Shown here: in pieces, positions 3,293 through 22,541 of the stretch
Position numbering within the stretch: position 1 is the first letter of the stretch
How the letters are laid out: every line of letters begins with the position of its first letter
From: Gamaleyavirus NAN33P5
Strand: one strand, 5' to 3'
Length of the DNA stretch: 64,000 nucleotides
Sequence record: OZ035750.1
The notes under the pieces: model-generated
Database searches by the model: none
Seen by the model: the letters and a program-made list of their open reading frames with translations, nothing else
What the model was told of the DNA's origin: nothing
Translations under genes and position numbers: made by a program

Positions 3293-4495
3293 ATGTTAAA
3301 CTATAACGCTCCAGTTGACGGTCAGAAATCTAGCATTGATGGTGCTGGTTCCGACCAGATGAATACCTTTTACTGGCTGAAGAAAGCTATTATTCAGTCC
3401 CGCAAAGATCAGTACTTCATGCCACTGGCTAACACCATCAACATGCCGAAGAACTACGGTAAGACTGTTAAGGTGTATGAGTACGTTCCACTGCTTGATG
3501 ATAAGAACATCAACGACCAGGGTATTGATGCCAACGGTGCTACCATCGTTAATGGTAACCTGTATGGTTCGTCCAAAGACGTTGGTAACATCACCTCTAA
3601 ACTGCCTCTGCTGACAGAGAACGGTGGTCGTGTTAACCGTGTAGGCTTTACCCGTATTTCTCGCGAAGGTTCCATTCATAAGTTCGGTTTCTTCTACGAA
3701 TTTACCCAAGAGTCTCTGGACTTTGATTCTGATGACCAGCTGAAAGAACACCTGTCCCGTGAACTGATGAACGGTGCTGTACAGTTGACTGAAGCTGTTC
3801 TCCAGAAAGACCTGTTGGCTGCTGCTGGTACTGTACTGTATGCAGGTGCTGCTACCTCTGATGCTACCATCACTGGTGAAGGTTCTACCCCGTCCGTAGT
3901 TTCTTATAAGAACCTGATGCGTCTTGACCAGATTCTTACTGAGAACCGTACTCCGACTCAGACTACTATCATCACTGGTTCTAAACTTACTGATACCAAA
4001 GTACTTGGTGGTACTCGTGTAATGTACGTTGGTTCTGAACTGGTTCCTGAACTGAAAGCGATGAAAGACCTGTTCGGTAACAAAGCATTCATTGAGGTTC
4101 AGCACTATGCTGATGCTGGTACTCTGATGAATGGTGAAGTTGGTTGTATCGACAAGTTCCGTATTATCCAGGTTCCAGAGATGCTGCATTGGGCAGGTGC
4201 TGGTGCTCAAGTCTATTCTAACCCGGGTTACCGTTCTTCTATGGTTAGTGGTCAAGAACACTACGACGTATTCCCGATGCTGGTAGTTGGTGATGACTCC
4301 TTCTCTACCATTGGCTTCCAGACTGATGGTAAGTCTGTTAAGTTCTCCATCATGACTAAGATGCCTGGTCGAGAAACTGCTGACCGTAATGACCCGTATG
4401 GCGAGACTGGTTTCAGTTCCATCAAGTGGTACTACGGTATTCTGGTTAAACGCCCAGAACGTCTGGCTCTGATTAAGACTGTTGCTCCTCTGTAA
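3293..4495 (+). CDS. major capsid protein
   Basis: 400-aa ORF followed by a strong GC hairpin; position between portal/scaffold-like genes and downstream virion genes; N4-like synteny. Confidence 0.6.
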
Positions 4496-5262: not shown

Positions 5263-5280
5263 GAACCAAGAGGAATGATT

Positions 5281-6117
5281 ATGTCTTGTTCTGCTGAGGT
5301 AGAAGCTAACCGACTCCTAGATGAGTTAACTAAGGGTGATGACTTTACCCTTCCTAATGTTGATATGTCTGGTCCTGAATGGGATATCCCTGGTGGAGAT
5401 AGCTCCCCAATCTTTGGTGCTATTACTAAAATAACAAACGAATCGCTTACTACCCGTGAAGTAGGTGGTAGTGGTACGTTTGATGCATTAATGGAATCTG
5501 CACACAATCACCTTAAAGCTGAGTATAAAGCTAACCGTATTACTGGTGGTGAATATACCAAGGCGTACATTGCTACGATGGAAGCCTGCATGAATAATGC
5601 TGTTCAGTTCTTACTTGGTCGTGACCAAGCATACTGGGCTGCTGCTATGGCACAGATTCAGGCAGTTACTGCACGTGTTGGTTTGGCAACGGCTAAAGCA
5701 CAGTTTGTACTTGCTAAGGCACAAGCACTGTCTACTAAATCTGAGTATGCCTTAACTAAGCTGAAACTCTCTAATGAGGGCCAGAATTACTGTGCTGCAA
5801 AGTTCAATGTGGATGAGATTCTTCCTGCACAGGAACGCTTATTACAAGAACAATACGAAGTACAGCGTGCACAAACCATGGAAACCCGTTCTGACTCTTT
5901 ACCAATCAAAGGTAGTATTGGTAAGCAGAAGGAGCTGTATGACCAACAGATTACTTCTTATCAACGTGATGCAGAAGTTAAAGCATCCAAACTATTTACC
6001 GATGCGTGGATTACACAGAAGACTATTGATGAGGGCTTGAATCCTCCTAATGGTTTCACTAACGCAAGTATTGATACCATTCTGTCCAAGCTGAAGTCTA
6101 ACAACGGGCTGAACTAA
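5281..6117 (+). CDS. hypothetical virion protein
   Basis: ORF 5275-6117; second in-frame ATG at 5281 has better spacing to GAGGA; 280 aa. Confidence 0.55.
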
Positions 6118-6118
6118 T

Positions 6119-8773
6119 ATGGGCTTATTCAGTGGGAAGACCAAAGTATACGTAGCATCCTCTGTCTATAACATGGCAGGGGATATACATAAGCGTCCAA
6201 ACTATATGAAGACTGTGGTTATTGGTAATATTGTTTTTAATACAGGATTCACTATGGCAGACACTATCTCCGATAGTTATCTGAACGGACCTGGTATTCG
6301 TATGCGACTGTTCTCCAGCTGGAGTAAGAACCACTATGATTCAGAAGTTGGTATGGCAGGTTCTTCATTGGGTGTACTGGCTAAGATTGACCCTACTGTT
6401 ATAGAGGGTCAAATTACCCCACCTGCTGGAGAATCAGTCTATGTTCAGGCAGCAGAGATTGGCTTTGCTGACTTTGAGCAATGGTGTGACCAGTATCTTT
6501 ATGAGAATGCCCCAAGTCGTATCATGGAACGATTCGACGTAGACATTGATGAAGATACTAATGAAATTACTATGACTTCCCTGGATGGAGGTTCTACCAT
6601 TACATTCACACCTACTAATTTTGAACCAGGTGCTTTGTATCTCTATGCTGATTACACATTCTATAAGTCCCCGACTACTAATCCACCTGTAGTAGGACCG
6701 ACTACTGTCTATGATGGTGAGGATGACTTACCATCTACTTTGTTGTGGACTACCATCTCAAGCGATACGACAGCTAATACAGCCAATCTTACCAAGACTA
6801 TACAGACTCATTCTGTTTACTCTGATGGTAGGCCAGATGAAGACAGTACTGTTACTGAACCAAGTGTAGATAACTGGAACTCTTACGTTAAGGTTTACCG
6901 TAGAGGATTTACTGAGAAGCCTGATGATGTAACTGTAGTTGTATCTGACAGGGTAATGACTCATACAAAGTTTGGTGAGATTCAATCCAATACTACTGTA
7001 ACTACCAATGTAGTTGATTTAGGCGGTGGTGTTACTCGCACTGACACAATCACCACAATTACAGAGACACTGGTTCGTAAATACTCATCTCAGATTACTC
7101 GTACTGATACTGAGATGGCTGCTGTTAGTACACCTAAGCTGCTTATCTATAAGCATAATTCTGGCAACGCTGTACTTGACTCCCTATTTGAGACTGAAGC
7201 TACTGATAACCGATTCTATCCATTCATTCCAATCAGGAATGATAAACAATGGGTAGAGTATGACCCAATTTACCCCCACTGTAAGAAGGCACTCTATAAA
7301 GCTACTGGTGGTAAGCTTAATAAAGTAATGACGGAGCTTAAGAAGAATAAGGACATAGGTGATATTCAGTACATTTATGGCACATTCGGTGTATCCCTTA
7401 ATACTCCAGAGGATACTGCTAAGGAATATATCTACCGTTTCTTTCAGATGGCTACTGAAGCATTCCCACCAGACCCAACTTACCCTACGCTGGAATCGGT
7501 AATTGCAGGTTATCAGGCAGCAAATGATGCAGTCGATGCATACGTAAAATGGTGGAACAGGCAGGAAGGTCTTATTGTTGGAACACCACCCCCCTTGCCG
7601 GAATATCCTGTCATACCTAAGCGAGAGTTTAGGGTGCATAGTAGTAAGCATTATAAGTATGACATGACCATCCGTTGGAATTATGTATCTGAAACTACAC
7701 ATTCTGGTAAAGCATGGGCAGGTGCTAAACAAGGACAACTTCGAGCCAGGTATGCAGGGGATATAACTCTTACACGCAAGAACATACGTACAGCTAGTAA
7801 CTCTGGTTCAACCAAAAGATTGGAAGTTATCCCTACGTTTTACTCTATGCAGGAATATGAGTTGCTTTGGCAAGATGGTAGTAACACCTATCGTAAACTT
7901 AGGGTACTTGGTCTACATCACAGCAACAGGGTGTATAAAAACAAGTCAGTAAACATTGATGTTGCTGAAGCAATGGGTGATGCAGAAGAGAGTGGATTCA
8001 TTATCCCACTGCACACTAACATCTACCGTTCAATGTCACTGACTCGTAGTACTCAGCTGTCTACTGCTTGTTCCTACTTAGTAATGAACTCATATAAGAA
8101 GGTTAAGAAGAAGTGGTATCAAACTTCTGCCTTTAAGATTGTGGTTGTTGTAGTTGCTGTCGTTGTATCTGTATTCACTATGGGTGCTGGTGGTGTAGGT
8201 ATACTTGGGGCTTATGGTGCAGTTGGTGCATCACTCGGTTTTGTTGGATTAGCTGCTGCAATAGTAGGTGCTGTAGCAAACGCCATTGCTGCAATGATTA
8301 TGATATCTATTGTCACTAAAGTATCTACTTCACTGTTTGGTGATAAGCTAGGTTTTATCATCGCTGCTGTTGCTTCAATGGTAGCTATGAATGTTGGTAC
8401 TGCTCTATCTACTGGTACATCCTTATCTACCTTAGCCAGCGAAATGATGAATGCCCAAAACATCATGCAGCTCACCAGTTCAGTAGGTAACGGTATTAGC
8501 CAGTATATTAATGCATCTACGGCTGCTACTATTCAGAAAGCAGAGAGTGTAATGCAGAAGTACAATACCGATATGATGGCAATCAATAAGCAGTATGAAG
8601 AAATGTTTGGTACTGCTGGACAGGGTGTAATTGACCCTATGCAATTCGTGTCAATGGAGTCGATGGATTCTTTCCTCTCACGTACTCTTATGACTGGTTC
8701 AGATATAGCTGATATGTCTCTAAACATGATTGGCAGCTACACTGATATGACTCTTAATACTGACCTTGTTTAA
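6119..8773 (+). CDS. large virion protein with C-terminal hydrophobic Gly/Ala/Val-rich segment
   Basis: 884-aa ORF; C-terminal ~100 aa is a run of V/A/G/I (IVVVVVAVVVSVFTMGAGGVGILGAYGAVGASLGFVGLAAAIVGAVANAIAAMIMISIV) predicted to be membrane-spanning. Confidence 0.55.
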   Translation: MGLFSGKTKVYVASSVYNMAGDIHKRPNYMKTVVIGNIVFNTGFTMADTISDSYLNGPGIRMRLFSSWSKNHYDSEVGMAGSSLGVLAKIDPTVIEGQITPPAGESVYVQAAEIGFADFEQWCDQYLYENAPSRIMERFDVDIDEDTNEITMTSLDGGSTITFTPTNFEPGALYLYADYTFYKSPTTNPPVVGPTTVYDGEDDLPSTLLWTTISSDTTANTANLTKTIQTHSVYSDGRPDEDSTVTEPSVDNWNSYVKVYRRGFTEKPDDVTVVVSDRVMTHTKFGEIQSNTTVTTNVVDLGGGVTRTDTITTITETLVRKYSSQITRTDTEMAAVSTPKLLIYKHNSGNAVLDSLFETEATDNRFYPFIPIRNDKQWVEYDPIYPHCKKALYKATGGKLNKVMTELKKNKDIGDIQYIYGTFGVSLNTPEDTAKEYIYRFFQMATEAFPPDPTYPTLESVIAGYQAANDAVDAYVKWWNRQEGLIVGTPPPLPEYPVIPKREFRVHSSKHYKYDMTIRWNYVSETTHSGKAWAGAKQGQLRARYAGDITLTRKNIRTASNSGSTKRLEVIPTFYSMQEYELLWQDGSNTYRKLRVLGLHHSNRVYKNKSVNIDVAEAMGDAEESGFIIPLHTNIYRSMSLTRSTQLSTACSYLVMNSYKKVKKKWYQTSAFKIVVVVVAVVVSVFTMGAGGVGILGAYGAVGASLGFVGLAAAIVGAVANAIAAMIMISIVTKVSTSLFGDKLGFIIAAVASMVAMNVGTALSTGTSLSTLASEMMNAQNIMQLTSSVGNGISQYINASTAATIQKAESVMQKYNTDMMAINKQYEEMFGTAGQGVIDPMQFVSMESMDSFLSRTLMTGSDIADMSLNMIGSYTDMTLNTDLV

Positions 8774-8786
8774 CAGGAGAATCCTT

Positions 8787-9230
8787 ATGGATTTGTCATT
8801 CTTAACAGGCAACCAAGCCCCTCAGCCAGGAGCTATGTCTTGGATGCCTAATAACAATCAGAACTTTAATACCCCAGCTATGAACTATATCCCCGGTGCA
8901 ACTATTGGTATGAATGCAGGTATAGGAGTAGCCTCCCCTACTTCTTTCTTGTCTGGTTCAGCTAATCAGTTGGGTATGAACGTACCTACCTTCCAGCTAG
9001 GGCTTGGTGCACTTGGTTCCTTAGCTGGTATCTATAGTGGTTTTCAGGCCAACAAGTTAGCCAAAGACCAGTTGAACTTCACTAAGAGTGTTACTAACAC
9101 TAACCTGAATAACCAGATTAAGTCTTATAACACTGCACTGGAAGACCGTGCTCGCAGTCGTGCTACAGCAGAGAATCGTGACCAGTCTTCGGCTGATGCT
9201 TACATTGCAGCTAATAAACTAACTCGTTAA
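8787..9230 (+). CDS. hypothetical virion protein
   Basis: ORF 8766-9230; ATG at 8787 preceded by AGGAGA; 147 aa from that start. Confidence 0.5.
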   Translation: MDLSFLTGNQAPQPGAMSWMPNNNQNFNTPAMNYIPGATIGMNAGIGVASPTSFLSGSANQLGMNVPTFQLGLGALGSLAGIYSGFQANKLAKDQLNFTKSVTNTNLNNQIKSYNTALEDRARSRATAENRDQSSADAYIAANKLTR

Positions 9231-9242
9231 TAGGAAACCATC

Positions 9243-11240: not shown

Positions 11241-11301
11241 AACTGGCTTACTGTAGAGTAAGTTACCTATATACGATATAAGTTTGAACAGGAAACATGC
11301 T

Positions 11302-14300
11302 ATGTCAACATTTGACCGTCTGGCAGGTTTCGCAGACAGCATCACTAATGCTAAGCAAGTCGATGTCTCTACTGCAACCTCTCAGAAGCAAGCTGCACAA
11401 GGGCAAAGCCCTTTCCAATTAACCCCAGAGAATGCTTACAATCTCCAGACTGGACGAGTAGGTAATCTTGGAATCGGTGCATTCGAACCAGGTTCACTTC
11501 AGGCAGATTTCACTCAAGCCTCTCCATTAGAAATTATTAATAAATACGGTAATGAGCAAGGTCTACAAATTCTTAATAGCCGAGCTAATGCTGCGGATGT
11601 TGTACGTCAGGACTTATCTAAACAACGTACTAACGCAGAAGCATTTGGCGATACTCTTTCTGGTGTTGGTCTTGGTGTTGCTAATACCCTTGGGGGCATT
11701 GCTGCTCTTGGCACAGGTCTGGTCAATGATAATGCCGGGGCATCCATTTCTTCCGGGATGGATTGGCTGAATGAAGGTGTACACAATTTACAATCTGATG
11801 CACTGAATGCTACCCGTAAAGTTGTTCAGAATCAGAACCAGATTTCTGCTCAAAAGAACCAGAAACTCTATGAGCAAGACATCAAAAATGGGGAGAGCGA
11901 TTTGGTTGCCTCCCTGTCTCGTATTGGACGTGATGCTTTCGATTCTGTTGCTAATACACTTGATAATGGCATGGCTGCTTCAGATGGACTGAGTGAAGGT
12001 GTTGGTTCCCTCTTTACTGGTGGTCCACTTATCCGTGGTGTATCTGCACTCGGTAAAGTAATGGTAGGTGGTGATAAAGCTGTTAAGGGTATTACCTTAG
12101 CTGCTGGGTTAGGTTCACGTCCTGCACAGGTTGCATTGTCTGCTGGTCGTGTTGCTGCACCTGCTATTGCAATTGGTGGCATGGAAGCTGGTGGTGCATA
12201 CCAACAGACTGCTTCTGAAATCATGAAGATGTCCCAGCAAGAATTGGCAAGTAAGTCTCCTGTTTACCAACAACATATTGCTGATGGCTTATCTCCTGAT
12301 GAAGCACGTCGTCAGACTGCATCTGAAACAGGTATCATTGCTGCTGGCTTAACTGCTCCAGTTGCTGCTGCTACCGGTCCACTGGTATCCAAGTTTGAAC
12401 TTAATCCACTTAAGGTAGGCTCACTTGCAGGTGCTGGTTCTAATATGCTGCGTGAAACAGTTGAAGAAGGTATTCAGTCAGGCTTTGGTCAGTATGCCCA
12501 GAACCGTGCAATCAAGGAAAATGTTGATGCATTCCGTGACACTCTCAAAGGGGTCGGTGAGCAAGCAGGTCTTGGTGCACTTTATGGCTTCGGTAGTGCT
12601 GGGGTTGCTCAAGCTCCTGGTGCAACTGTTAAAGCAGTTGGTGCTTCTGCTGGTCCTGCTCTTCGTACTACTCTGGCTGGTGCTTCTCTGGTTGGTAAAA
12701 CATTAGCAAAAGCTGCGTCCCCTCTTACTAACATCCTGGTTCAACGTGGTGAAGAAGTTGCTAAGCGTAATGAACAAGCATCTCCTGTAGCTGATGCTAC
12801 GGTTAACGCTGCTGCACAGGAAGCTGCTGCTCAAGCAGAGCAGGCACAAGCAACTGTACAGGAAGCAGTAGATGCAATGGATATCACTCCAGAGGAGAAA
12901 GCTGCTGCTACCCAGTATGCTGCTGATTTAACTCAGGCAATGAAGTTTGACCCAGTAGAATTGGAGCAAGCTAACCCTGCAATCCGTGAAGCTGTTTCTG
13001 GTTCCACTAACCGTGTAGAAGCTATTCAGAAGATGGCTGACCTGGTTAATACTGCCGAAGACCCTAACGTTCAAATGGAAGCTGCAATCCAGATGTATGA
13101 CAATATCATGTCTATGGATAGCTTCATTAACCGTGACCCAGGTGCTCTGGCTAATCTGGAACAGGGTTCCCCTGCTGCTGCAATCGTAGACCAGTTCTCT
13201 GGCCTGATGGCTAACGTGCAGAATACCCCTAAAGTACTCCGTGCATTCCGTGCTATCCATTCTATGATTCAGGAACAGGCTGAAGCAGGTAAACTGAAAG
13301 CCACTGAAGAAGCTAGCCAAGCCCAAGCAAACAACATTGCTATGGCTGCTGATGTATCTCCAGAAGTACTGGATGCAGATTCAGTAAACATGGTTCTGAA
13401 ACATGCAAGTGAAGGTAAGATTACACTTGGGAATCGTCAACGTGCTGCCCTGCAATCTGCTGCTGCCTTGTTACAGGGTGCACGTGAGTTCGACGCTAAA
13501 GCAGAAGAACTGGGCTTACGTCCTCAAGACATTGTTAGTAAACAGATTAAAACCGATGAGTCTCGTTCTAACGAAGGACAGTACTCTGCGTTGCAACATG
13601 CGAAACGCATTCGTTCTGCGTATAACTCTGGTAACTTCGATTTGGCCTCCGCTTATCTGAGCGACTTTATGAAGTTCGCCCAGCACATGCAGAATAAGGT
13701 CGGAGCATTGAATGAGCATCTGATTTCTGGGAATGCGGATAAGAATAAGTCTGTTCATTATCAGGCTCTCTCGCCTTCCCGTGAATGGGTACGTAGTCGT
13801 ACTGGCCTTGGTGTTAACCCTTACGATACCAAGTCTGTTAAGTTTGCCCAGCAAGTAGCACTGGAAGCTAAGACCGTAGCTGATATTGCTAATGCACTTG
13901 CTACGGCTTACCCGGAGCTTAGTGTTTCTCATGTGAAAGTTACCTCGTTAGATTCACGTCTGAACAAACCTGCTGCCCAGGTAGTTAAAGAGTTCCGTCA
14001 AGGTGGTCTTGATGCCACTCAGTCTCAACAGACTAATGAACCAGTGAATCAGGTTGATGAATCTCCTGCACCAGTGCAAGAGGTCACTACTACTGTACAG
14101 CCTAAAGCTAAACCAGTGGTAGAAAATAAGACTGCTCCTATTAAGGAGACTAGTCCAAAAGCAGAAGAAGTCTCTACTACTAAGACTGAAACAGTAGATG
14201 TTACCCTCACTAATGAGGGTAACATCCAGGAAGTAGCTGTAACCAAAACAGAAATGGAAACAGTGTTCCCTGTCTATAACAATGAAAAGACACCGAACCA

Positions 14301-17300
14301 GTTCCTGAAATCGTTTTCCCTGCCGGAAGAACCTAAGTCCCGTACCATTGGTTCTGAATCTCCTTTGGCTGATATTAAGCAAGCACTGTCTTCTGCTGCT
14401 CGCTTTGAAGCATTCACTCAAAAAGAAAATAACGCTCTCACTAGTGATGTGATGAAACGTTATCAGGACTTGATGGACTTTGGGGAAACTCTGAAGACTA
14501 CTCTGTCTGAACGTCTGGCTAAGTTCCTTGCTAACAAAAATGTTGGTAAACGTTTTGCAGAAGGTACTGAGGCTAATCGTTGGGTAGGTGGCAAACTGCT
14601 GAATATCGTTGAACGAGATGGTGATACCTTTAAGTTCAACGACCAGTTGTTAGAGACTGCTGTACTTGCTGGTCTGCAATGGCGACTGACTGCTACACAG
14701 AATGCTGCCATTAAAGATATGAAAGATGTAGCTGCTATTACTGGCGTAGAAGCATCTCTGTTACCAGAAGGTATTCTGGCTGAGTTTGAGAATGCCCAGA
14801 CTCTGGTAGAAGCTACTAACTCACTGGCTCAGAAGATTGAATCCTACTGGGGTTTGAATCGCAATCCTAATGCACCACTGGGTTATACGAAAGGTATCCC
14901 AATGGCAATGGCTACAGAGATTCTGTCTTCCCTCATTGAGATGGGTGAAGTTAAAGAGTCTATGCTGGATGTGTCTGAGATTGACCCGAACTCCAATAAG
15001 ACTGTTGGTCTGTATACTATTGAGAAGCTGGATGACAATGATGCCATTAATAAATTCCCTACTGCTATTGAGGAAGCTGTCCTATTAGAACCAGAAGAGA
15101 AAATGTACTTTGGTGATGACATTCCTTCCGTGGCCCAGACTCAGTTACGTAATCCTGCTGTTAAAAATACCCCTGAGCAGAAAGCTGCTCTGAAAGCTGA
15201 ACAGGCTACTGAGTTCCGTGTACATATGCCGATGGTTAACTTCTATGAAGCATTAGGCCGTGACAACATTCTGGAACTGATGGGTGCTGGTACTCTTAAT
15301 CCTGACTTACTGAATGAGAACACTGCTAAATCTCTGGAAGGTAAAAACCTGTCCGTGTCTATGGCATATGATTCTCTGTTCGGTGTAATTAATCAGATAC
15401 GGGAACAAGAGAATGGATTGGATACGCCTATCCATTACGGTTACAACATGACCCGTGTAGGTCGTATGCAGATGCTTGGTAAGAACAACCCACAATCCAG
15501 TAAGCTGGTTCGTGAAGCAATTCTGCCGACCTTCTCTACTATCGACTTAAGTAATGAAAACAGCCAAGCGTACTCTGACTTCCAGCTAGGACTGGCTCAG
15601 GCATTGGGCATCAAGGTACATAACATGTCCCGTGAGGCTATGTCTGAAAAGCTGACCAAGGCTCTGGAAGGCAATCTGAAGCCAGCTGTTGATATGATGG
15701 TTGAGTTCGATAAGTCTGGTCACTTACCTGCCGATGCAGTAGATATTCTGAAGACCTCTCTGGGTGGTGACAAATCCTTTGTAGCTCTCATGGCTCTGAT
15801 GGAATATGCCCGTTACCTGAACAGTGATGACCGTGCCAACTTTAATACCCCACTGTACGTTGAAGCTGATGGTGTAACCAACGGCCCAATCAATGCAATG
15901 GTATTAATGACTGGTGGTAAATTCACTCCAGACTGGATTAAGAATACTGCCAAAGGTGGTTTGTTCTTCGGCAAAGCTGGTAAGACTATGAACGAACATC
16001 GTTCACAGGATGATAGTGTTGACCTGTATGAAGCATCTACTAATGGTTTGCAACAAGCACTAAATGAGTTACGTACTACTTACCGTAACAACGTTCCTGT
16101 TATGAGCCAGATGAATCATCTCCAGAAGTTAATGGACCTGTTCATTAAAGACTTTAACCTGAATGAAGACGGTACTCTGGACCTGAAACGTGGTATCGCT
16201 AAAAACCCACTGACCATTACCATCTATGGTTCTGGTGCTCGTGGTATTGCTGGCAAGATGGTTAGTGCAATTACTGACACCATCTACGAACGCCTCAGTG
16301 ACGTTTTGCAAGCACGTGCTGCTGACCCTAGCATTTCCCCAGCTATGGCAATGTTTGGTAAGGAGGCTGCGTCTGAGGCTGATGCTCAGGCTATGCTGGA
16401 TACTTTCCTTACTTCTATGGAAGCACTGACTGGTAATGTTCCAGTTATGCGTAAGGGTGAGTTATCTATTCAACAAGTAGAGGGTGCACTGACTGGTAAG
16501 TTAAACCCTCAGAAATTTACAGTATCCGGTAATGCCCTGAAGAATTTACAGGAGAACATGCTCCACCTGTTCGTTGAACCAATGCGTACTGGTATCCGTA
16601 ATACTGTTGGTGAAGGTCTGATGCACTCTACTGAGAACTTGCAGAAGGCTACCCAGATTCAGTCTCTGGTATTGCAGGATATGTTCCAGCAAGCAGTACA
16701 GGCTAAACTAGCAGAAAAAGAAAAAGACTCAACCTGGAAGAAGGGTGATTTCTTAACGCAGAAAGAACTGAATGAAATCCAGGAATCATTATCCCCGCTG
16801 GCTCCAATGATTGAGACTGGCTCACAGACTTTCTACATTGCTGGTAGTGAGAATACTGATGTTGCTAACCAAGTACTGGCTACCAACTTAGATGACCGTA
16901 TGCGTGTGCCAATGAGTATCTATGCTCCTTCGCAGGCAGGTGTTGCAGGTATTCCGTTTATGACCATTGGTACTGGTGATGGCATGATGATGCAGACCCT
17001 TTCTACTATGAAAGGTGCTCCGAAGAATACCCTGAAAATCTTTGATGGTATGAACATTGGTATCAATGACATCACTGATGCGAGTCGTAAAGCGAATGAG
17101 GCTGTATACACATCCTGGCAGGGGAACCCTATCAAGAATGTTTATGACTCCTACGCTAAGTTCATGAAGAATGTAGATTTCAGCAAACTGTCTGATGAAA
17201 CCAAACAGGCTATCGCTAAATCTGCTCTGGAATATGACCAGCGTGAAGGTGCTACCGATGACCTGTTACGTGCGGGTGCTGAACAGATTGAACGTAACCT

Positions 17301-20300
17301 GCGTAACATTGCCCTGGGTGTAGATATTCGCCACAAAGTAATGGACCAGGTGCAGACCACTGTTGATCAGATGGCTGCTGTGGGTGCTCCTTATGTGAAC
17401 AACGGTAAAATCTCTCTTGAAGGTCTTACTGTAGACCAGCAAGTAGCCAAACTGAACGAACTGTTTGATGCTGAATTAAACAAGCGTCGTGATGCAGTAC
17501 GTGCTGCTAAAGCAGAACCAGTGAAAGAAGTACCGGCAATGGAACAGGTTGGTCGTGTTCTTAAGTCTGGTGTACGTCTGCTGTCCAATACTGCTATTGC
17601 TAAGCTGGCTAAAGAGATGTCTCCTGAACAGCAAGCAGTATTGAAAGAAGTACAGAAATCCCTTGCTGCCAAAGACTATAAGGTTGTTTACGGTACTCCT
17701 GCTCAACTGGATGCTTACGCTATTGAGAAGAACATTACTCGCCCAGCACCAGAAGATATTGAAGCTGCCGAAGCTGGTAATGCATACGGCTGGACTAACT
17801 TTGATGATAAGACCATCTACTTGGTTACCCCTTCCTTAGAGACTCTGGTTCATGAATTAGTACATGCTTCTACTTTTGAATCTGTACTGGCTCATTATGA
17901 GGGTACTCCTAACGAAGCAGTCCAGAATATTGAAGACCTGATGAATCAGTTCCGTACTTTGGATGTTAAGAACGAATCCACGGTAGTACGTGAAGCATAT
18001 GCTGATGCTCTCAATACCATTAATGGTCACTTGTCTAATGGCTTTATTGAACCAGCAATGGCTAAAGCTGCTGCACTGAATGAGTACATGGCATGGGGCT
18101 TAACTAACCGTGAGCTGATTAGTAAGCAGAAGAAGACCACTGCACTGAAAGCTATGGTTCAGTCTGTATATGAAGCAATCAAACGTCTGGTATTCGGTCG
18201 TAAGAAAGCTCCTGCTAATGCAGATGATATGTTCTCAGGCTTATTGTTTAACTCATCTGTAGTTATGCGTGGACAGGCTCCTACGGCTGTTGTATCCAAG
18301 GACACTACCTTGTTCCATAACAAAGCGTATGGTGACAATACCCGTCTGGAAGAGTTAGGACAGACCTTTGATAAGCTGATTACTAACTACATTGGTTCAG
18401 AACCAGTACAGCAAGTAATTCGTAAAGGTAAGTTTTCTGATGCAGTAGTGAATGCAACTAAAGTAACCCGCGATGTTCAGGCTCATGGCTTCACTATGAA
18501 TATGCAGGAACAGCGTCTGTTCACTAATATCGTTGCTGCTTTGGCTACTGAAGCTGCTATTAGTCCTGCTGCTCTTTCTCGTGCACAGGAATATTATGCA
18601 CACGTTACCAAGAACCTGACTGTTGAAGCATTCATGGCTGACCCAGATAGTACTGACCCTGCTGACCGTTACTATGCTCAGCAGAAGTTTGATACCATCA
18701 TGGGTGCTAACAATATTGAGTTTGATGCACAGGGACGTTCTTCCTTACTGCCTACCTTTGTTGGTCTGGCAATGGTAAGCGAAGAAGTACGTAATGTACT
18801 GGCTAACATTCCTGTTATGAAAGCAGATAAGAAATCTGGTAATACCGTTGATGCAATGCTGACTAACATTGGTACTGCTGCAATGTCCAGCCTGAATGCT
18901 CGTGTAGCAGGTGATACCAAAGCTACCAACGTGCAGGACGGTATGGATGCACTGGCTCAGACAATCATGCAGACTAGCCTTAATGCACAGTCATTCTATG
19001 ATTCCGTTGCTACTCCTAGTGGTAATGCTATTGACCGTGCTAACCAGTATCTGGTGGATTCTATCGATGCACTGTCTACTCGTGCTTTAGAAAGTGCTCG
19101 TGAAGTTGCAGCCAATACCAAGAACCCGTTGGTCAAAGGTGCTGCTCATGCTGCACAACTGGTAGCTGCCATTGCTACAGAGAAGAACGGTGCAATCGTG
19201 GCAGAAGGTGTTATGGCTGCAATGAACCAGGGTAAAGTATGGCCACCCTTCCATGACTTAGTTAATGACTTAACCGGTCGTACTAAGAGCAATGCTTCTG
19301 TATACGATTTGATTAAAGCAGTTCGTGCACAGGTACAAGCAGACCGACAGCAATTCCGTGAACGCCTGCCTACCACTATTGCATCTAAGTTCAGCCGTAA
19401 GCTGACTAATGATGAGTGGAAAGCAATGCACACTGGTATGGGTAAAACTGATTTAGCTGTCCTGCGTGACACCATGTCTCTGGCTGAAATCCGTGACCTG
19501 CTGTCTGACCAGAAGATTGTTGACCGTGAAGTGAATAAGCTGGAAGCAGATTTGCAGAAGCAAGCTGGTCGTAACTGGCCTCTTATTAGTCGTAAATCTA
19601 AGCAACTGGCTCAGTACATGATTAACGGTACAGTCGGTAATAACCTGCTGCGTAATGCTACTGCAATCTCCCGTATGCTGGGTGAACGACAGGCTGCTCG
19701 TTCTACTGTAGATGTAGCTCAGCTGGATAAACTGATTACCCTGTATGCACTGGAAGCAATGAATAAGACTGATCGTGAGATGTTATCTTCACTGGCTCAG
19801 ACAGAAGTTGATGGAATGGACTTTGCTACTTCTTATCTGGTTGGTCAGCGTAAAGATGAAATGGCTAAAGCCAAGTCTGACCCACGTGCAACTCTGAACC
19901 AGTACAAAGGGCATATCCCTAGTGAGACTAAACAGGGTGTTAATCTGATTGTTGCTGAAGATAGCCAGTTTGCTGATTTAATTGAGAAGTCTTATGTACG
20001 TCTTGGTACTTATCAAGGTAGCTCTGCCAACCGTGGTCCAGCACGTAGCTATTACTTTGCTCCAGTACAGGCACAGGCTCCCTTCTCACAGGGTATCCTA
20101 CAGAACGTTCGTGATACTGCTGGTGGTGTAGACCTCGGCACAGGATTTACGATGGGTTCAATGGTAGCTGGTCGTATTACTGACAAGCCTTCCGTAGACC
20201 GTATTACTAAAGCACTGGCTCGTGGTGAACGTGGCAATGAACCATTGCTGCCTGTATATGACGATAAAGGTAATGTAGTTGCTTATGAGCAATCCATTGA

Positions 20301-21654
20301 CCCTAACATGCTGAAGCATATTGAAGGTGAGAACCACCTTGCCCGTGCAATTGGTGTATGGCGTGGTCGCCAAGTGGAAGAGGCTAAGGCTCAGCGTTTT
20401 AACGATATGCTGATTGAGAACCTGCACAGCATGTATGAGAACGACATTAAGATGTCTGCCTCTAATAAGTCCCAGTACGTTAACCTTCTTGGTTCTAAAC
20501 TGGACCCAGTAACTGCTGATGCTCTCAAGCTGATGAACAGTGAAACTCGACGGAAAGCAGAAAGCCTGTTTGGTGATGGCGAACTGTGGGTGCGTCGTGA
20601 CATGCTGAATGATGCACTTGGTTATCGTGCAGCTTCTGTTGGTGATGCCTGGTCTGGTAATTCTCGTTGGTCCCCGGAAACCCTGGATACCTTCAAGAAA
20701 GCTATGCTGGGTGTATTTGGCAACCGTGCTTATAAGTACACAATAGGTGGTGAGAACCTGGTTCAGAACTTAGTTAAAGAAGCCAAGACTCTGATTGTAG
20801 TTAAGTCAGTAGTCGTACCTGCTGTTAACTTCTTGGCTAACCTTTACCAGATGGTTGCTCGTGGTGTACCGGTTAAGAACATTGCTAAAAGCATTCCACA
20901 GAAAACTGCTGAGATTAACCAGTACCTGAAATCTCGTTTGCGTCAGGTAGATGCAGAAGCAGAATTACGTGCAGCTACTAACCCGAACCAGATTCGTAAA
21001 CTTAAGGCTGAGATTCAGTCTATCACTGATAGCCATAAGCGTATGAGTATCTGGCCTCTGTTAGAAGCTGGTGAGTTCTCTTCAATTGCAGATGCTGGTA
21101 TCGGTCGTGATGACATTCTGATCACTGAAGGCAAACTTCACGAATACATGGAAAAGCTGGCTGATAAGTTACCTAAGTCAGTACGTACTGCTGGTCGTTA
21201 TGCACTTATCACTAAGGATACTGCTTTGTTCCAGGGTATTCAGAAGACGGTTGAGTACTCTGACTTTATTGCTAAAGCAATCATCTATGATGAATTGACC
21301 CAGCGTAAAGGTAAGACTCGTGAAGAAGCACTAGGACGTGTGACGGAAGAGTTCGTGAACTATGACCGTTTACCGGGTCGCTTCCGTGGGTATATGGAAA
21401 GTGTTGGTTTAATATGGTTCTACAACTTTAAGATTCGTTCTGCAAAAGTTGCAGTGTCCATGATTCGTAACAACCCAGTACATGCAGCAATGGCGATGTT
21501 GGCTCCAACTCCTACCATGTTTGGTAATGTTGGCTTACCTATTCAGGACAACATCTTTAGCATTGCTGCTAAGGGTGGACTGGATTACTCATGGGGCTTC
21601 GGTCAAGGGCTTCGTGCTCACAACCTGAACCCTTGGATGAACTTAGTAAACTAA
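11302..21654 (+). CDS. virion-encapsidated RNA polymerase (giant vRNAP)
   Basis: Single uninterrupted ORF of about 3450 codons (track ORF 11284-21654; first ATG with AGGA RBS at 11302); a protein of this size at the end of the virion module is the hallmark of N4-like phages. Confidence 0.8.
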   Translation: MSTFDRLAGFADSITNAKQVDVSTATSQKQAAQGQSPFQLTPENAYNLQTGRVGNLGIGAFEPGSLQADFTQASPLEIINKYGNEQGLQILNSRANAADVVRQDLSKQRTNAEAFGDTLSGVGLGVANTLGGIAALGTGLVNDNAGASISSGMDWLNEGVHNLQSDALNATRKVVQNQNQISAQKNQKLYEQDIKNGESDLVASLSRIGRDAFDSVANTLDNGMAASDGLSEGVGSLFTGGPLIRGVSALGKVMVGGDKAVKGITLAAGLGSRPAQVALSAGRVAAPAIAIGGMEAGGAYQQTASEIMKMSQQELASKSPVYQQHIADGLSPDEARRQTASETGIIAAGLTAPVAAATGPLVSKFELNPLKVGSLAGAGSNMLRETVEEGIQSGFGQYAQNRAIKENVDAFRDTLKGVGEQAGLGALYGFGSAGVAQAPGATVKAVGASAGPALRTTLAGASLVGKTLAKAASPLTNILVQRGEEVAKRNEQASPVADATVNAAAQEAAAQAEQAQATVQEAVDAMDITPEEKAAATQYAADLTQAMKFDPVELEQANPAIREAVSGSTNRVEAIQKMADLVNTAEDPNVQMEAAIQMYDNIMSMDSFINRDPGALANLEQGSPAAAIVDQFSGLMANVQNTPKVLRAFRAIHSMIQEQAEAGKLKATEEASQAQANNIAMAADVSPEVLDADSVNMVLKHASEGKITLGNRQRAALQSAAALLQGAREFDAKAEELGLRPQDIVSKQIKTDESRSNEGQYSALQHAKRIRSAYNSGNFDLASAYLSDFMKFAQHMQNKVGALNEHLISGNADKNKSVHYQALSPSREWVRSRTGLGVNPYDTKSVKFAQQVALEAKTVADIANALATAYPELSVSHVKVTSLDSRLNKPAAQVVKEFRQGGLDATQSQQTNEPVNQVDESPAPVQEVTTTVQPKAKPVVENKTAPIKETSPKAEEVSTTKTETVDVTLTNEGNIQEVAVTKTEMETVFPVYNNEKTPNQFLKSFSLPEEPKSRTIGSESPLADIKQALSSAARFEAFTQKENNALTSDVMKRYQDLMDFGETLKTTLSERLAKFLANKNVGKRFAEGTEANRWVGGKLLNIVERDGDTFKFNDQLLETAVLAGLQWRLTATQNAAIKDMKDVAAITGVEASLLPEGILAEFENAQTLVEATNSLAQKIESYWGLNRNPNAPLGYTKGIPMAMATEILSSLIEMGEVKESMLDVSEIDPNSNKTVGLYTIEKLDDNDAINKFPTAIEEAVLLEPEEKMYFGDDIPSVAQTQLRNPAVKNTPEQKAALKAEQATEFRVHMPMVNFYEALGRDNILELMGAGTLNPDLLNENTAKSLEGKNLSVSMAYDSLFGVINQIREQENGLDTPIHYGYNMTRVGRMQMLGKNNPQSSKLVREAILPTFSTIDLSNENSQAYSDFQLGLAQALGIKVHNMSREAMSEKLTKALEGNLKPAVDMMVEFDKSGHLPADAVDILKTSLGGDKSFVALMALMEYARYLNSDDRANFNTPLYVEADGVTNGPINAMVLMTGGKFTPDWIKNTAKGGLFFGKAGKTMNEHRSQDDSVDLYEASTNGLQQALNELRTTYRNNVPVMSQMNHLQKLMDLFIKDFNLNEDGTLDLKRGIAKNPLTITIYGSGARGIAGKMVSAITDTIYERLSDVLQARAADPSISPAMAMFGKEAASEADAQAMLDTFLTSMEALTGNVPVMRKGELSIQQVEGALTGKLNPQKFTVSGNALKNLQENMLHLFVEPMRTGIRNTVGEGLMHSTENLQKATQIQSLVLQDMFQQAVQAKLAEKEKDSTWKKGDFLTQKELNEIQESLSPLAPMIETGSQTFYIAGSENTDVANQVLATNLDDRMRVPMSIYAPSQAGVAGIPFMTIGTGDGMMMQTLSTMKGAPKNTLKIFDGMNIGINDITDASRKANEAVYTSWQGNPIKNVYDSYAKFMKNVDFSKLSDETKQAIAKSALEYDQREGATDDLLRAGAEQIERNLRNIALGVDIRHKVMDQVQTTVDQMAAVGAPYVNNGKISLEGLTVDQQVAKLNELFDAELNKRRDAVRAAKAEPVKEVPAMEQVGRVLKSGVRLLSNTAIAKLAKEMSPEQQAVLKEVQKSLAAKDYKVVYGTPAQLDAYAIEKNITRPAPEDIEAAEAGNAYGWTNFDDKTIYLVTPSLETLVHELVHASTFESVLAHYEGTPNEAVQNIEDLMNQFRTLDVKNESTVVREAYADALNTINGHLSNGFIEPAMAKAAALNEYMAWGLTNRELISKQKKTTALKAMVQSVYEAIKRLVFGRKKAPANADDMFSGLLFNSSVVMRGQAPTAVVSKDTTLFHNKAYGDNTRLEELGQTFDKLITNYIGSEPVQQVIRKGKFSDAVVNATKVTRDVQAHGFTMNMQEQRLFTNIVAALATEAAISPAALSRAQEYYAHVTKNLTVEAFMADPDSTDPADRYYAQQKFDTIMGANNIEFDAQGRSSLLPTFVGLAMVSEEVRNVLANIPVMKADKKSGNTVDAMLTNIGTAAMSSLNARVAGDTKATNVQDGMDALAQTIMQTSLNAQSFYDSVATPSGNAIDRANQYLVDSIDALSTRALESAREVAANTKNPLVKGAAHAAQLVAAIATEKNGAIVAEGVMAAMNQGKVWPPFHDLVNDLTGRTKSNASVYDLIKAVRAQVQADRQQFRERLPTTIASKFSRKLTNDEWKAMHTGMGKTDLAVLRDTMSLAEIRDLLSDQKIVDREVNKLEADLQKQAGRNWPLISRKSKQLAQYMINGTVGNNLLRNATAISRMLGERQAARSTVDVAQLDKLITLYALEAMNKTDREMLSSLAQTEVDGMDFATSYLVGQRKDEMAKAKSDPRATLNQYKGHIPSETKQGVNLIVAEDSQFADLIEKSYVRLGTYQGSSANRGPARSYYFAPVQAQAPFSQGILQNVRDTAGGVDLGTGFTMGSMVAGRITDKPSVDRITKALARGERGNEPLLPVYDDKGNVVAYEQSIDPNMLKHIEGENHLARAIGVWRGRQVEEAKAQRFNDMLIENLHSMYENDIKMSASNKSQYVNLLGSKLDPVTADALKLMNSETRRKAESLFGDGELWVRRDMLNDALGYRAASVGDAWSGNSRWSPETLDTFKKAMLGVFGNRAYKYTIGGENLVQNLVKEAKTLIVVKSVVVPAVNFLANLYQMVARGVPVKNIAKSIPQKTAEINQYLKSRLRQVDAEAELRAATNPNQIRKLKAEIQSITDSHKRMSIWPLLEAGEFSSIADAGIGRDDILITEGKLHEYMEKLADKLPKSVRTAGRYALITKDTALFQGIQKTVEYSDFIAKAIIYDELTQRKGKTREEALGRVTEEFVNYDRLPGRFRGYMESVGLIWFYNFKIRSAKVAVSMIRNNPVHAAMAMLAPTPTMFGNVGLPIQDNIFSIAAKGGLDYSWGFGQGLRAHNLNPWMNLVN

Positions 21655-21690
21655 AATAAAAAAGCCCCTCATAGAGGGGCTTTGCTTTTA
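21655..21690. terminator. bidirectional rho-independent terminator at strand-switch point
   Basis: AGCCCCTC-ATA-GAGGGGCT hairpin flanked by A-run upstream and T-run downstream; sits between convergent plus-strand and minus-strand genes. Confidence 0.6.
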
Positions 21691-21694
21691 GAAG

Positions 21695-21925
21695 TTAGGG
21701 TGTTTTCCACATTTTAGGCTTACGCCCTTCGCTTGGAAATTTACCAGTCTCTTTAATCTTCCGTAATGTTTCTTCTCCCGGGAACCACAGGAAAGAGAAG
21801 TAGAGTTTCTTAGCTACGTAACGAGTTACTCCCAGCTTCTCTGCGATTTCATCGAATGAGTATGTACGGACGGTATTGTTGAGAATGGCCTCACGAACAA
21901 CAGAGGTAATAGATACTTGCGTCAT
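21695..21925 (-). CDS. small hypothetical protein, possible HTH DNA-binding
   Basis: 76-aa ORF; segment FDEIAEKLGVTRYVAKK resembles a helix-turn-helix. Confidence 0.4.
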   Translation of the reverse strand: MTQVSITSVVREAILNNTVRTYSFDEIAEKLGVTRYVAKKLYFSFLWFPGEETLRKIKETGKFPSEGRKPKMWKTP

Positions 21926-21934
21926 AATAGTTTC

Positions 21935-22450: not shown

Positions 22451-22470
22451 TAGGAGGGCTTGTTTTGTTT
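22442..22470. terminator. hairpin with plus-strand T tract (possible bidirectional terminator)
   Basis: AGCCCTC-ACTA-GGAGGGCT followed by TGTTTTGTTTT on plus strand. Confidence 0.3.
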
Positions 22471-22541
22471 TGGCTTCATGAGCCTTACCACATGTCGGGT
22501 AGTTCTGTACCTTTCGGTAAAAACTACCTTACTCTTATTTG

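What the first reader, a model, noticed from the sequence alone, without database searches (positions are those of the whole stretch)
6119..8773. Virion protein with a long C-terminal hydrophobic Gly/Ala/Val segment
The last ~100 residues of the 884-aa protein form a nearly uninterrupted hydrophobic run rich in G, A, V, I, long enough for multiple membrane spans. In a virion-module protein this suggests a membrane-inserting ejection or channel-forming role rather than a purely structural one.
Basis: inference. Interest (0 to 1): 0.35.

Follow-up and report, generated by a model that had tools for sequence, protein, structure and literature searches.

The report
N4-type phage tail plug protein
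This gene encodes the tail plug of an N4-like phage, and its long greasy Gly/Ala/Val stretch matches the segment that corks the tail tube in the published phage N4 structure, so the feature is real but already explained.

Summary
The ORF (6119-8773, +, 884 aa) is real. So is the Gly/Ala/Val/Ile-rich hydrophobic run (z = 8.9 against shuffles; the most hydrophobic 100-aa window in the 64-kb window). It is misplaced in the finding: it covers aa 674-774 (nt 8138-8440), and the last ~110 residues are polar.

The window is a G7C-like (Gamaleyavirus) N4-like phage. The protein is a full-length orthologue of N4 gp53 (PDB 9YFT, E = 0, ~54% identity) and a relative of Pseudomonas phage DEV gp74 (9ZE4). 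Both are published in 2026 as the single-copy tail plug. In N4, residues 29-56 and 670-716 (ours 29-56 and 674-720) form a "hydrophobic knot" of six short helices that corks the gp54 tail tube. The last ~160 residues lie unresolved in the tail lumen and are proposed to act as a "ripcord" for gp52.

Membrane insertion or channel formation has no support: there is one copy per virion, it stays on emptied particles, and pore activity was measured for gp52 and gp51.

What remains open is the equally conserved second half of the run (aa 721-774) and the polar tail.

Verdict: already known, low interest.

The parts
6119..8773 (+). gp53-like tail plug gene, 884 aa. ATG at 6119 lies one base after the TAA of the tail-tube gene; stop TAA at 8771-8773.
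   Evidence: Full-length match to N4 Gp53 (9YFT chain FA, E = 0, residues 1-883 to 1-883). phrog_2220 over its full length.
6203..6286 (+). aa 29-56, the N-terminal half of the 'hydrophobic knot' (N4 gp53 residues 29-56); predicted helices 29-40 and 46-55.
   Evidence: Alignment to an N4-like representative: 68% identity, same numbering. AF2 secondary structure. Role taken from PMC13434306.
6731..7138 (+). aa ~205-340, the beta-'feather': four 24-30-residue strands, T/S-rich. Absent from the ~735-760-aa family members.
   Evidence: AF2 strands 211-234, 241-266, 272-300 and 306-335 with pLDDT 84-93. Least conserved region and the one with most gaps. DEV gp74 lacks it.
8039..8137 (+). aa 641-673, a conserved basic/aromatic collar (STQLSTA..YLV.NSYKKVKKKWYQ) just before the hydrophobic run.
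   Evidence: Among the most conserved segments; T645, Q646, N657, Y659, K665 and W666 are invariant. The motif is kept in distant genera.
8138..8278 (+). aa 674-720, the first half of the hydrophobic run (IVVVVVAVVVSVFT + Gly-rich MGAGGVGILGAYGAVGASLGFVG + LAAAIVGAVA). It equals N4 670-716, the C-terminal half of the knot that corks the tail tube.
   Evidence: Longest stretch free of D/E/K/R/H/N/Q. 66% identical to N4. Conserved G694, G697, G703, G707, G710 and G717. Structure-based role from PMC13434306.
8279..8440 (+). aa 721-774, the second half of the hydrophobic run: the end of the hydrophobic helix that starts at aa 711 (to 732), a polar FGDK turn (740-743), then a further hydrophobic helix at aa 744-766. 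Almost all of it is beyond the end of the N4 atomic model (N4 724 = ours 728), so it is unresolved in the tail lumen.
   Evidence: 69% identical to N4. N721, G741 and G745 invariant; K743 and G766 conserved in at least 90%. AF2 helical but pLDDT 31-51.
8441..8656 (+). aa 775-846, a polar M/N/Q/S/T-rich region predicted as a long amphipathic helix (779-830), plus a variable linker.
   Evidence: mean KD -0.34, helical hydrophobic moment 0.93.
8657..8770 (+). aa 847-884, a conserved C-terminal motif (E847, F852, R855, T856, G860; 'FLxRTLMTGSDIAxMS').
   Evidence: Invariant columns in 25 and in 114 homologues. Always at the extreme C-terminus in the 150 best family representatives.
5275..6117 (+). 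gp54-like tail-tube protein (280 aa), the tube that the plug seals.
   Evidence: PDB matches: 9D80 'Tail protein' at 2e-137, N4 Gp54 (9LC0/9YF4/9YFT) at 2e-120, DEV gp75 tail tube at 7e-21.
8787..9230 (+). gp52-like ejection protein (147 aa from the ATG at 8787, with a GGAGA Shine-Dalgarno sequence upstream). The mechanical ORF call starts at a TTG at 8766.
   Evidence: N4 '16.5 kDa protein' in 9YF4 at 1.7e-41; DEV gp73 (8VXQ) at 8e-5. Sequence. Same length as annotated in phage SP5M.
9243..11207 (+). gp51-like ejection protein (654 aa).
   Evidence: PDB 11MN '66 kDa protein' at 2.8e-130. phrog_6126.
11284..21654 (+). Giant virion RNA polymerase ORF (3456 aa as listed).
   Evidence: Annotated 'virion RNA polymerase' in relatives at 94-98% nucleotide identity.

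Best explanation
The protein is the tail plug of a G7C-like N4-like podovirus (Schitoviridae) and the orthologue of N4 gp53.

Inferred from the N4 and DEV structures: one copy closes the distal opening of the dodecameric gp54-like tail tube. [quoted passage not shown] The chain then turns into the tube through a conserved basic/aromatic collar (aa 641-673).

The first half of the hydrophobic Gly/Ala/Val run (aa 674-720) packs with aa 29-56 into a knot of short helices. This knot works as a greasy cork. It keeps DNA and the luminal ejection protein gp52 in.

The rest of the chain runs up the lumen: a further stretch of hydrophobic helix, a long polar helix and a conserved C-terminal motif (aa 721-884).

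On receptor engagement the plug is displaced sideways and its C-terminus is pulled out of the lumen (the published 'ripcord' idea). This releases gp52, then gp51, then the virion RNA polymerase and the DNA.

Shown here: orthology, synteny, residue-level conservation of the knot segments, and universality of the module. Inferred from homologues: location, copy number, cork function and the displacement mechanism.
For: - **Identity of the phage.** 94-98% nucleotide identity to Gamaleyavirus phages.
- **Orthology.** Full-length match to N4 Gp53, PDB 9YFT, E = 0. The C-terminal profile matches 9YFT at 1e-110 and DEV gp74 (9ZE4_M) at 2e-22. The AF2 model matches 9ZE4_M at Foldseek E = 2.4e-16.
- **Published structure and model.** N4 residues 29-56 and 670-716 form the hydrophobic knot. 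[quoted passage not shown] The paper also reports the 12:6:1 stoichiometry, the plug on empty particles, and the ripcord proposal (PMC13434306). For DEV gp74, see PMC12892993.
- **Residue mapping.** Ours 29-56 and 674-720 correspond to N4 29-56 and 670-716, at 68% and 66% identity against 53% overall.
- **Neighbours.** The flanking genes are the gp54-like tube, gp52-like, gp51-like and vRNAP genes.
- **Synteny.** The same order holds in 61 of 61 IMG/VR loci with enough downstream DNA.
- **Family size and architecture.** The C-terminal module finds 1901 cluster representatives at E <= 1e-3 and 617 at E <= 1e-30. The best 150 all carry it at the extreme C-terminus. All have the hydrophobic window.
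- **Distant genera.** Pacinivirus and Triduovirus keep the same architecture.
- **Virion presence.** Moo19 gp70 (69% identical) was found by mass spectrometry, with unassigned weak density at the tube tip.
Against: - Nothing was measured on this phage itself. Location and stoichiometry are transferred from N4 (54% identity) and DEV.
- The N4 partner that holds the plug (gp65 domains D9-D10) has no counterpart in the closest annotated relative, SP5M. That phage has tailspike genes instead of the gp64/gp65 sheath genes. The retention and trigger step must therefore differ.
- AF2 gives only pLDDT 31-51 for aa 688-805, even with 114 sequences. The knot is therefore not independently predicted here.
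- About half of the hydrophobic run (aa 721-774) and the tail are unresolved in every structure, so the cork explanation covers only part of the observation.
- This protein is much more hydrophobic than the published pore formers of the same cassette. A pure seal does not obviously require that.
Confidence: 0.82

Rival explanations
1. First reader's idea, in its strongest surviving form. After the plug is dislodged, the hydrophobic helices (aa 674-766) leave the tube and insert into the host outer membrane. There they anchor the tail tip or seed assembly of the gp52 pore. The plug would then be a membrane-active initiator of ejection as well as a seal.
For: - Three segments are of transmembrane length and hydrophobicity: 47 windows of 19 aa with KD >= 1.6. 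A summed Hessa-type insertion energy is about 0 kcal/mol for aa 674-692 and 711-729 (the scale values were entered from memory).
- It is the only protein of the tube/gp53/gp52/gp51 set with such windows.
- The segment sits at the very tip of the tail, which meets the outer membrane first.
- The half not explained by the knot (aa 721-774) is as conserved as the knot.
- Small-xxx-small motifs at spacings of 3-4 residues are typical of membrane helix packing.
- AF2's failure to fold the region could reflect conformational plasticity.
Against: - In N4 the segment is seen folded in the tube, not in lipid. The plug is present on emptied particles and is described as rebinding the tube.
- With one copy per virion it cannot itself form a DNA-wide channel.
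- Bilayer activity was shown for gp52 and gp51 or their DEV homologues, and no test of gp53 is reported.
- There is no homology to any known ejection or pore protein in Pfam, NCBIfam or the PDB.
- Val/Ala/Gly-rich segments give only marginal predicted insertion energy.
Confidence: 0.12
2. The luminal C-terminal ~155 residues act mainly in assembly. They would serve as an internal template or docking rod on which the tail tube closes and the 12 gp52 N-termini are loaded. This resembles a miniature tape-measure or chaperone segment, and the hydrophobicity would serve protein-protein packing only.
For: - In N4 the gp52 residues 1-16 and the gp53 C-terminus share the tail lumen, and a poorly resolved double ring is seen there.
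- The C-terminal motif (E847, F852, R855, T856, G860) is invariant, which argues for a specific partner.
- The gene order tube-plug-gp52 is fixed with very short gaps: 1 nt and 13 nt here.
Against: There is no direct evidence, and no assembly phenotype is reported in the papers read. The idea is compatible with the cork/ripcord model rather than exclusive of it.
Confidence: 0.2
3. The hydrophobic run is a cytoplasmic-membrane anchor used in the infected cell, for example to assemble tails at the membrane, or for lysis or exclusion. It would be unrelated to the virion.
For: Only the hydrophobicity, and the Lys-rich flank KKVKKKW before the first helix, which resembles a positive-inside signal.
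Against: The orthologous segment is resolved inside the virion tail tube in N4. The gene sits in the structural operon in all relatives examined. The lysis genes lie elsewhere in the close relative.
Confidence: 0.03

Closest known systems
Coliphage N4 gp53 tail plug (PDB 9YFT; Bellis et al., Nat Commun 2026, PMC13434306)
   Same: Full-length orthologue (E = 0, ~54% identity, 884 vs 885 aa). It holds the same position between the gp54 tube gene and the gp52/gp51/gp50 cassette. It has the same beta-feather. Both halves of the hydrophobic knot are conserved at 66-68% identity, and the unresolved C-terminal ~160 residues are also conserved.
   Different: It belongs to a different genus (Gamaleyavirus rather than Enquatrovirus). 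The closest relative carries G7C-type tailspike genes and no gp64/gp65 sheath genes. The protein that tethers the plug and couples it to receptor binding in N4 is therefore apparently missing, and the trigger is unknown.
Pseudomonas phage DEV gp74 tail plug (PDB 9ZE4 chain M; mBio 2026, PMC12892993)
   Same: The core fold is shared (Foldseek E = 2.4e-16). The C-terminal hydrophobic module is homologous (profile E = 2e-22). The gene lies in the same syntenic position, and one copy caps a 12-mer tube.
   Different: It is 740 aa and has no beta-feather. It is held by the gp56-gp55-gp54 receptor-binding fibre. Sequence identity outside the C-terminal module is very low.
Tail needle or plug of P22-like podoviruses (gp26 of P22 and Sf6)
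   Same: It is a functional analogue: a protein that closes the tail channel and must move for ejection proteins and DNA to leave. The DEV paper itself makes this comparison.
   Different: From established knowledge: it is a trimeric coiled-coil needle. It has no hydrophobic knot, is not homologous and sits in a different symmetry context.
Hydrophobic segments of siphophage tape-measure proteins that occupy the tail lumen and enter the host envelope (for example T5 pb2, lambda gpH)
   Same: This is an analogy from my own knowledge, not tested here. In both cases a hydrophobic segment is stored inside the tail tube at the distal end and is expelled first on triggering.
   Different: Tape-measure proteins are multi-copy, set the tail length and have documented membrane activity. 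None of this is shown for gp53-type plugs. No sequence similarity was found.
Podovirus outer-membrane ejection proteins (N4 gp52, DEV gp73, T7 gp14)
   Same: They belong to the same operon and the same delivery pathway. They are hydrophobic helical proteins stored in or near the tail lumen.
   Different: They are small, multi-copy (9-12 per virion) and have measured pore activity. The plug is large and single-copy, has no measured pore activity and is not homologous to them.

Membership tests
Schitoviridae tail plug (N4 gp53 / DEV gp74 family; phrog_2220) | Full-length sequence homology to N4 gp53 | tested here: met
   phmmer against PDB chains: 9YFT_FA Gp53, E = 0, 1050 bits, residues 1-883 to 1-883. 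phrog_2220, E = 0, over its full length.
Schitoviridae tail plug (N4 gp53 / DEV gp74 family; phrog_2220) | [quoted passage not shown] | tested here: met
   Neighbours identified by PDB matches. The same order holds in 61 of 61 related IMG/VR loci with at least 7.5 kb downstream and in two distant genera.
Schitoviridae tail plug (N4 gp53 / DEV gp74 family; phrog_2220) | The two segments that build the hydrophobic knot (N4 29-56 and 670-716) are conserved | tested here: met
   Ours 29-56 and 674-720 align without shift, at 68% and 66% identity. Conserved Gly positions and N721.
Schitoviridae tail plug (N4 gp53 / DEV gp74 family; phrog_2220) | Core fold like the solved plugs | tested here: met
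Schitoviridae tail plug (N4 gp53 / DEV gp74 family; phrog_2220) | Present in the virion as a single copy sealing the tail-tube tip | not testable with these tools
   Literature only: N4 LC-MS and cryo-EM, DEV cryo-EM, and Moo19 gp70 (69% identical) in virion mass spectrometry with unassigned tip density.
Schitoviridae tail plug (N4 gp53 / DEV gp74 family; phrog_2220) | Held in place by the receptor-binding protein (gp65 D9-D10 in N4; gp56 fibre in DEV) | tested here: inconclusive
   The tail genes lie outside the window. The closest annotated relative, SP5M, has tailspike and tail-protein genes but no sheath genes the size of gp64/gp65. The partner differs between N4 and DEV, so this feature varies within the family.
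Pore-forming / membrane-inserting podovirus ejection proteins (T7 gp14, DEV gp73, N4 gp52 class) | Hydrophobic segments of membrane-spanning length | tested here: met
   Segments 674-692, 711-731 and 744-764. There are 47 windows with KD19 >= 1.6, and the additive insertion energy is about 0 kcal/mol for the first two.
Pore-forming / membrane-inserting podovirus ejection proteins (T7 gp14, DEV gp73, N4 gp52 class) | Sequence or profile homology to a known ejection or pore protein | tested here: not met
   Pfam gave only DUF2207_C at E = 0.16, below its cut-off. There were no Pfam hits for aa 641-884, no NCBIfam hits, and the PDB profile search returned only gp53 and gp74.
Pore-forming / membrane-inserting podovirus ejection proteins (T7 gp14, DEV gp73, N4 gp52 class) | Multiple copies per virion that leave the particle and oligomerise into a channel | not testable with these tools
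   The literature on the N4 orthologue argues against it: one copy per virion, and it is retained on empty particles.
Pore-forming / membrane-inserting podovirus ejection proteins (T7 gp14, DEV gp73, N4 gp52 class) | Measured membrane insertion or channel activity | not testable with these tools
   The papers read report no experiment on gp53-type proteins. Bilayer data exist only for gp52 and gp51 of N4 and gp73 of DEV.

The most novel reading that the evidence does not exclude
The part of the hydrophobic run that no structure explains is aa 721-774, together with the conserved luminal tail (aa 775-884). In this reading it is not a passive 'ripcord'. It would be a membrane-active element that inserts into the outer membrane when the plug is dislodged, marking or nucleating the site where gp52 assembles its pore. 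That would make the single-copy plug the first phage component to enter the host envelope. It would also explain why the plug is by far the most hydrophobic protein of the tail/ejection cassette, and why the module is invariant across Schitoviridae while the receptor-binding partners change.
Probability: 0.12. Interest if true: 0.5.

Novelty: already known. Interest (0 to 1): 0.15.

Why it matters
As it stands, the practical value is in annotation. The gene is still labelled 'hypothetical protein' in close relatives such as SP5M, E20 and IME11. Elsewhere it carries labels such as 'baseplate wedge protein', 'membrane protein', 'putative tail protein' or 'ATPase'. Pfam and NCBIfam have no model for it, and PHROGs lists it as 'unknown function'. 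It can now be named a tail plug with a defined hydrophobic cork.

Two points would matter if pursued. First, roughly half of the hydrophobic run and the conserved C-terminal tail are unexplained by any structure. Second, G7C-like phages lack the N4 sheath protein that holds and triggers the plug. How receptor binding by their tailspikes opens the gate is therefore open. This is relevant because G7C-like phages are used as models for O-antigen-dependent infection.

Tried and rejected
- **Pfam, NCBIfam and PDB profile searches** of the whole protein and of aa 641-884. Nothing was found outside the gp53/gp74 family. DUF2207_C at E = 0.16 is below its threshold and was ignored.
- **AF2 with 25 and then 114 sequences.** The core and feather are confident, but aa 688-805 stay at pLDDT 31-51. 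The knot could therefore not be confirmed by prediction, and no fold claim is made for the C-terminal module.
- **Foldseek hits of the feather to aerolysin-type beta-pore-forming toxins** (7ML9 at E = 2e-4, probability 0.47, TM-score 0.06-0.13, rmsd about 40 Å). These were rejected as generic long beta-hairpin similarity.
- **Mean-field DCA** on 241 family sequences, to look for contacts between aa 29-56 and 674-720. The first run exceeded memory. In the reduced run the top pairs (71-833, 687/688-767, 43-691) fell in what appear to be indel-rich columns, judged from the Gly-rich loop in the alignment. They look gap-driven, so the result was not used.
- **The Structure 2025 N4 tail paper** (pmid 40318628) is not held in the library.
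- **Holin or inner-membrane anchor reading.** It was considered and rejected, because the orthologous segment is resolved in the virion tail.
- **Resemblance to viral fusion peptides, glycine zippers and the phiX174 H pilot protein.** This rests on memory only and was not tested. It is not used as evidence.
Full report
**1. What is in the sequence**

The ORF is as described: ATG at 6119, TAA at 8771-8773, 884 codons, + strand. It starts one base after the stop of the preceding gene (TAA-T-ATG). A GGAGA-ATG start for the next gene follows 13 nt later, at 8787.

The hydrophobic run exists and is striking. The best 100-aa window has a mean Kyte-Doolittle value of 1.68. Two thousand shuffles of the same protein gave 0.45 +/- 0.14, so z = 8.9. 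It is the highest such window among all open frames of 150 aa or more in the window. Within aa 674-774, G+A+V+I make up 60%, against 29% for the whole protein.

The finding misplaces the run. It starts at aa 674 and ends near aa 774 (nt 8138-8440). The last 100 residues are polar: mean KD -0.06, with 15 charged residues.

The run has internal structure:
- a beta-branched stretch, IVVVVVAVVVSVFT (aa 674-687);
- a Gly-rich stretch with Gly every 3-4 residues (aa 688-710);
- an Ala/Ile/Val helix (aa 711-732);
- a short polar turn with an invariant FGDKxG motif (aa 740-745);
- a fourth hydrophobic helix (aa 744-766).

**2. What it is**

The window comes from a G7C-like N4-like podovirus (Schitoviridae, genus Gamaleyavirus). 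It shows 94-98% nucleotide identity over 25 kb to Escherichia phages SP5M, PhAPEC5/7 and E20, and to Klebsiella phage K57alpha1.2.

PHROGs and PDB matches give this gene order:
- portal (2-1678);
- a 114-aa and a 406-aa protein;
- major capsid protein (3293-4495);
- a 213-aa protein;
- gp54-like tail tube (5275-6117);
- the protein in question (6119-8773);
- gp52-like (8787-9230);
- gp51-like (9243-11207);
- the 3456-aa virion RNA polymerase (11284-21654).

The protein matches N4 Gp53 (PDB 9YFT chain FA) over its full length, at E = 0. It also matches the 'N4 gp53-like protein' of 9ZE4, which is DEV gp74 (9ZE4 also contains the DEV gp75 tube). The AF2 model has a confident globular core and four 24-30-residue strands forming the 'feather' (pLDDT 75-95). 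It matches 9ZE4_M at Foldseek E = 2.4e-16.

**3. What the literature says about the orthologue**

Bellis et al. (Nat Commun 2026, PMC13434306) identified gp53 as the N4 tail plug. They describe the following:
- It is a single asymmetric copy closing the 12-mer gp54 tube.
- It is tethered by domains D9-D10 of one gp65 sheath subunit, giving a 12:6:1 arrangement.
- Most of the protein lies outside the tube.
[quoted passage not shown] - The plug is present on both full and emptied particles.
- The authors propose that receptor binding displaces the plug sideways. Withdrawal of its C-terminus then acts 'as a ripcord' for the luminal copies of gp52.

The DEV paper (mBio 2026, PMC12892993) reaches the same view for gp74, which lacks the feather and is held by the gp56 fibre.

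Pore activity in bilayers was measured for N4 gp52 and gp51 and for DEV gp73.

In Moo19, whose gp70 is 69% identical to the window protein, the protein was detected in virions by mass spectrometry. Weak, unassigned 'plug' density was seen at the tube tip.

**4. Mapping onto this protein**

The alignment puts N4 29-56 on ours 29-56 and N4 670-716 on ours 674-720. The latter is exactly the longest stretch free of D/E/K/R/H/N/Q. The end of the N4 model (residue 724) falls at ours 728.

These segments are 68% and 66% identical to N4, against 53% for the whole protein. The published knot therefore accounts for the first ~47 residues of the run.

The following ~55 hydrophobic residues (aa 721-774) are 69% identical to N4. 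The polar tail, with an invariant E847/F852/R855/T856/G860 motif, is also conserved. Both correspond to the unresolved luminal part.

**5. How general it is**

A profile of aa 641-884 was run against 1.84 billion cluster representatives. It found 1901 proteins at E <= 1e-3 and 617 at E <= 1e-30. In the best 150, the module always covers the extreme C-terminus of proteins that are mostly 660-920 aa long, plus some fragments.

All 142 new representatives have the hydrophobic window 112-134 residues from the end. Lengths fall into a ~720-760 group, which lacks the feather, and a ~880-920 group.

In IMG/VR, 61 of 61 loci with enough downstream DNA show the order plug, then a ~150-aa gene, a ~650-aa gene and a giant ORF. 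Distant genera (Vibrio Pacinivirus JSF3 and Salmonella Triduovirus TR2) keep the KxKWYQTG collar, a ~100-aa hydrophobic run and a polar tail.

Together with residues 1-28, the collar and the hydrophobic run are the most conserved parts of the protein.

**6. Mechanism and rivals**

The best-supported reading (confidence ~0.8) is the published one, transferred by orthology: a single-copy plug whose Gly/Ala/Val helices form a greasy cork in the tube. My inference is that small residues at 3-4-residue spacing let short helices pack tightly enough to seal a 12-fold channel with one asymmetric chain.

A weaker version survives (~0.12). In it, the unresolved half and the tail touch or enter the outer membrane when the plug is dislodged.

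One observation made here favours this version. The plug is the only protein of the tube/plug/gp52/gp51 set with windows of transmembrane-grade hydrophobicity: 47 windows, against none for the other three.

Against it stand the retention of the plug on empty particles, the absence of any reported membrane test of gp53, and only marginal additive insertion energies (about 0 kcal/mol; the scale was entered from memory).

A third, compatible idea is an assembly or docking role for the luminal tail with the gp52 N-termini (~0.2).

**7. A difference from N4**

In the closest annotated relative, SP5M, the genes between portal and terminase encode a spanin, an endolysin, a 672-aa tailspike, a 93-aa protein, a 929-aa tail protein and a 235-aa structural protein. 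Nothing there has the size of the N4 gp64/gp65 sheath genes. The plug's tether and trigger in Gamaleyavirus must therefore be another protein. This is an inference from annotation, because the tail genes lie outside the window.

**8. Verdict**

The feature is real and its coordinates need correcting. The protein, its role and the purpose of at least half of the hydrophobic run are already published for a clear orthologue. The novelty rating is 'already known' and interest is low (0.15). The remaining open question is the function of aa 721-884, which would need experiments.

Noticed in passing
window 6119-11207 (gp53-like, gp52-like, gp51-like) and 5275-6117: Within the tail/ejection cassette, only the plug has windows of transmembrane-grade hydrophobicity (47 windows with KD19 >= 1.6). 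The homologues of the experimentally pore-forming gp52 and gp51 have none; their maxima are 1.08 and 0.72.
   Followed up: partly
window 8279-8770 (aa 721-884 of the plug): The part of the protein that is unresolved in the N4 structure is as conserved as the resolved knot. It includes invariant N721, G741, G745, E847, F852, R855 and G860, which suggests a specific but unidentified partner in the tail lumen.
   Followed up: partly
L001 (Escherichia phage SP5M, NC_070869.1) 15300-25500 of the locus: The closest annotated relative has tailspike and tail-protein genes but no genes the size of the N4 gp64/gp65 sheath genes. The protein that tethers and triggers the plug in N4 therefore has no evident counterpart in this genus. 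The plug gene there is annotated only as 'hypothetical protein'.
   Followed up: partly
window 2056-3276 (+): The 406-aa ORF between the portal and major capsid genes matches phrog_2120, which is labelled 'tail length tape measure protein'. RefSeq relatives carry the same label. That is implausible for a short-tailed phage. The position suggests a scaffolding or other head-assembly protein. It has no PDB match.
   Followed up: partly
window 8766-8790: The mechanical ORF call for the gp52-like gene starts at a TTG at 8766, overlapping the plug's stop codon. The likely start is the ATG at 8787, with a GGAGA 8 nt upstream, giving 147 aa as annotated in SP5M.
   Followed up: yes
window 23361-23520 (-): Two adjacent tRNA genes lie on the minus strand, about 1.7 kb beyond the end of the vRNAP gene. 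One is tRNA-Ile (anticodon aat). The other is called by ARAGORN with an abnormal 2-nt anticodon loop ('tRNA-???'). Relatives annotate tRNA-Ile or tRNA-Xle there.
   Followed up: no
window 6731-7138 (aa ~205-340, beta-feather): The AF2 feather gives weak Foldseek hits to aerolysin-type beta-pore-forming toxins (7ML9 at E = 2e-4; TM-scores 0.06-0.13). This is probably only generic long beta-hairpin similarity.
   Followed up: partly
window 6119-6202 (aa 1-28): The N-terminal 28 residues (MGLFSGKTKVYVASSVYNMAGDIHKRPN) are the most conserved stretch of the protein: 89% identical to N4, with M1, V12, S14, N18 and G21 invariant in 114 homologues. Residues 1-8 are not in the N4 model and their role is unknown.
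   Followed up: no
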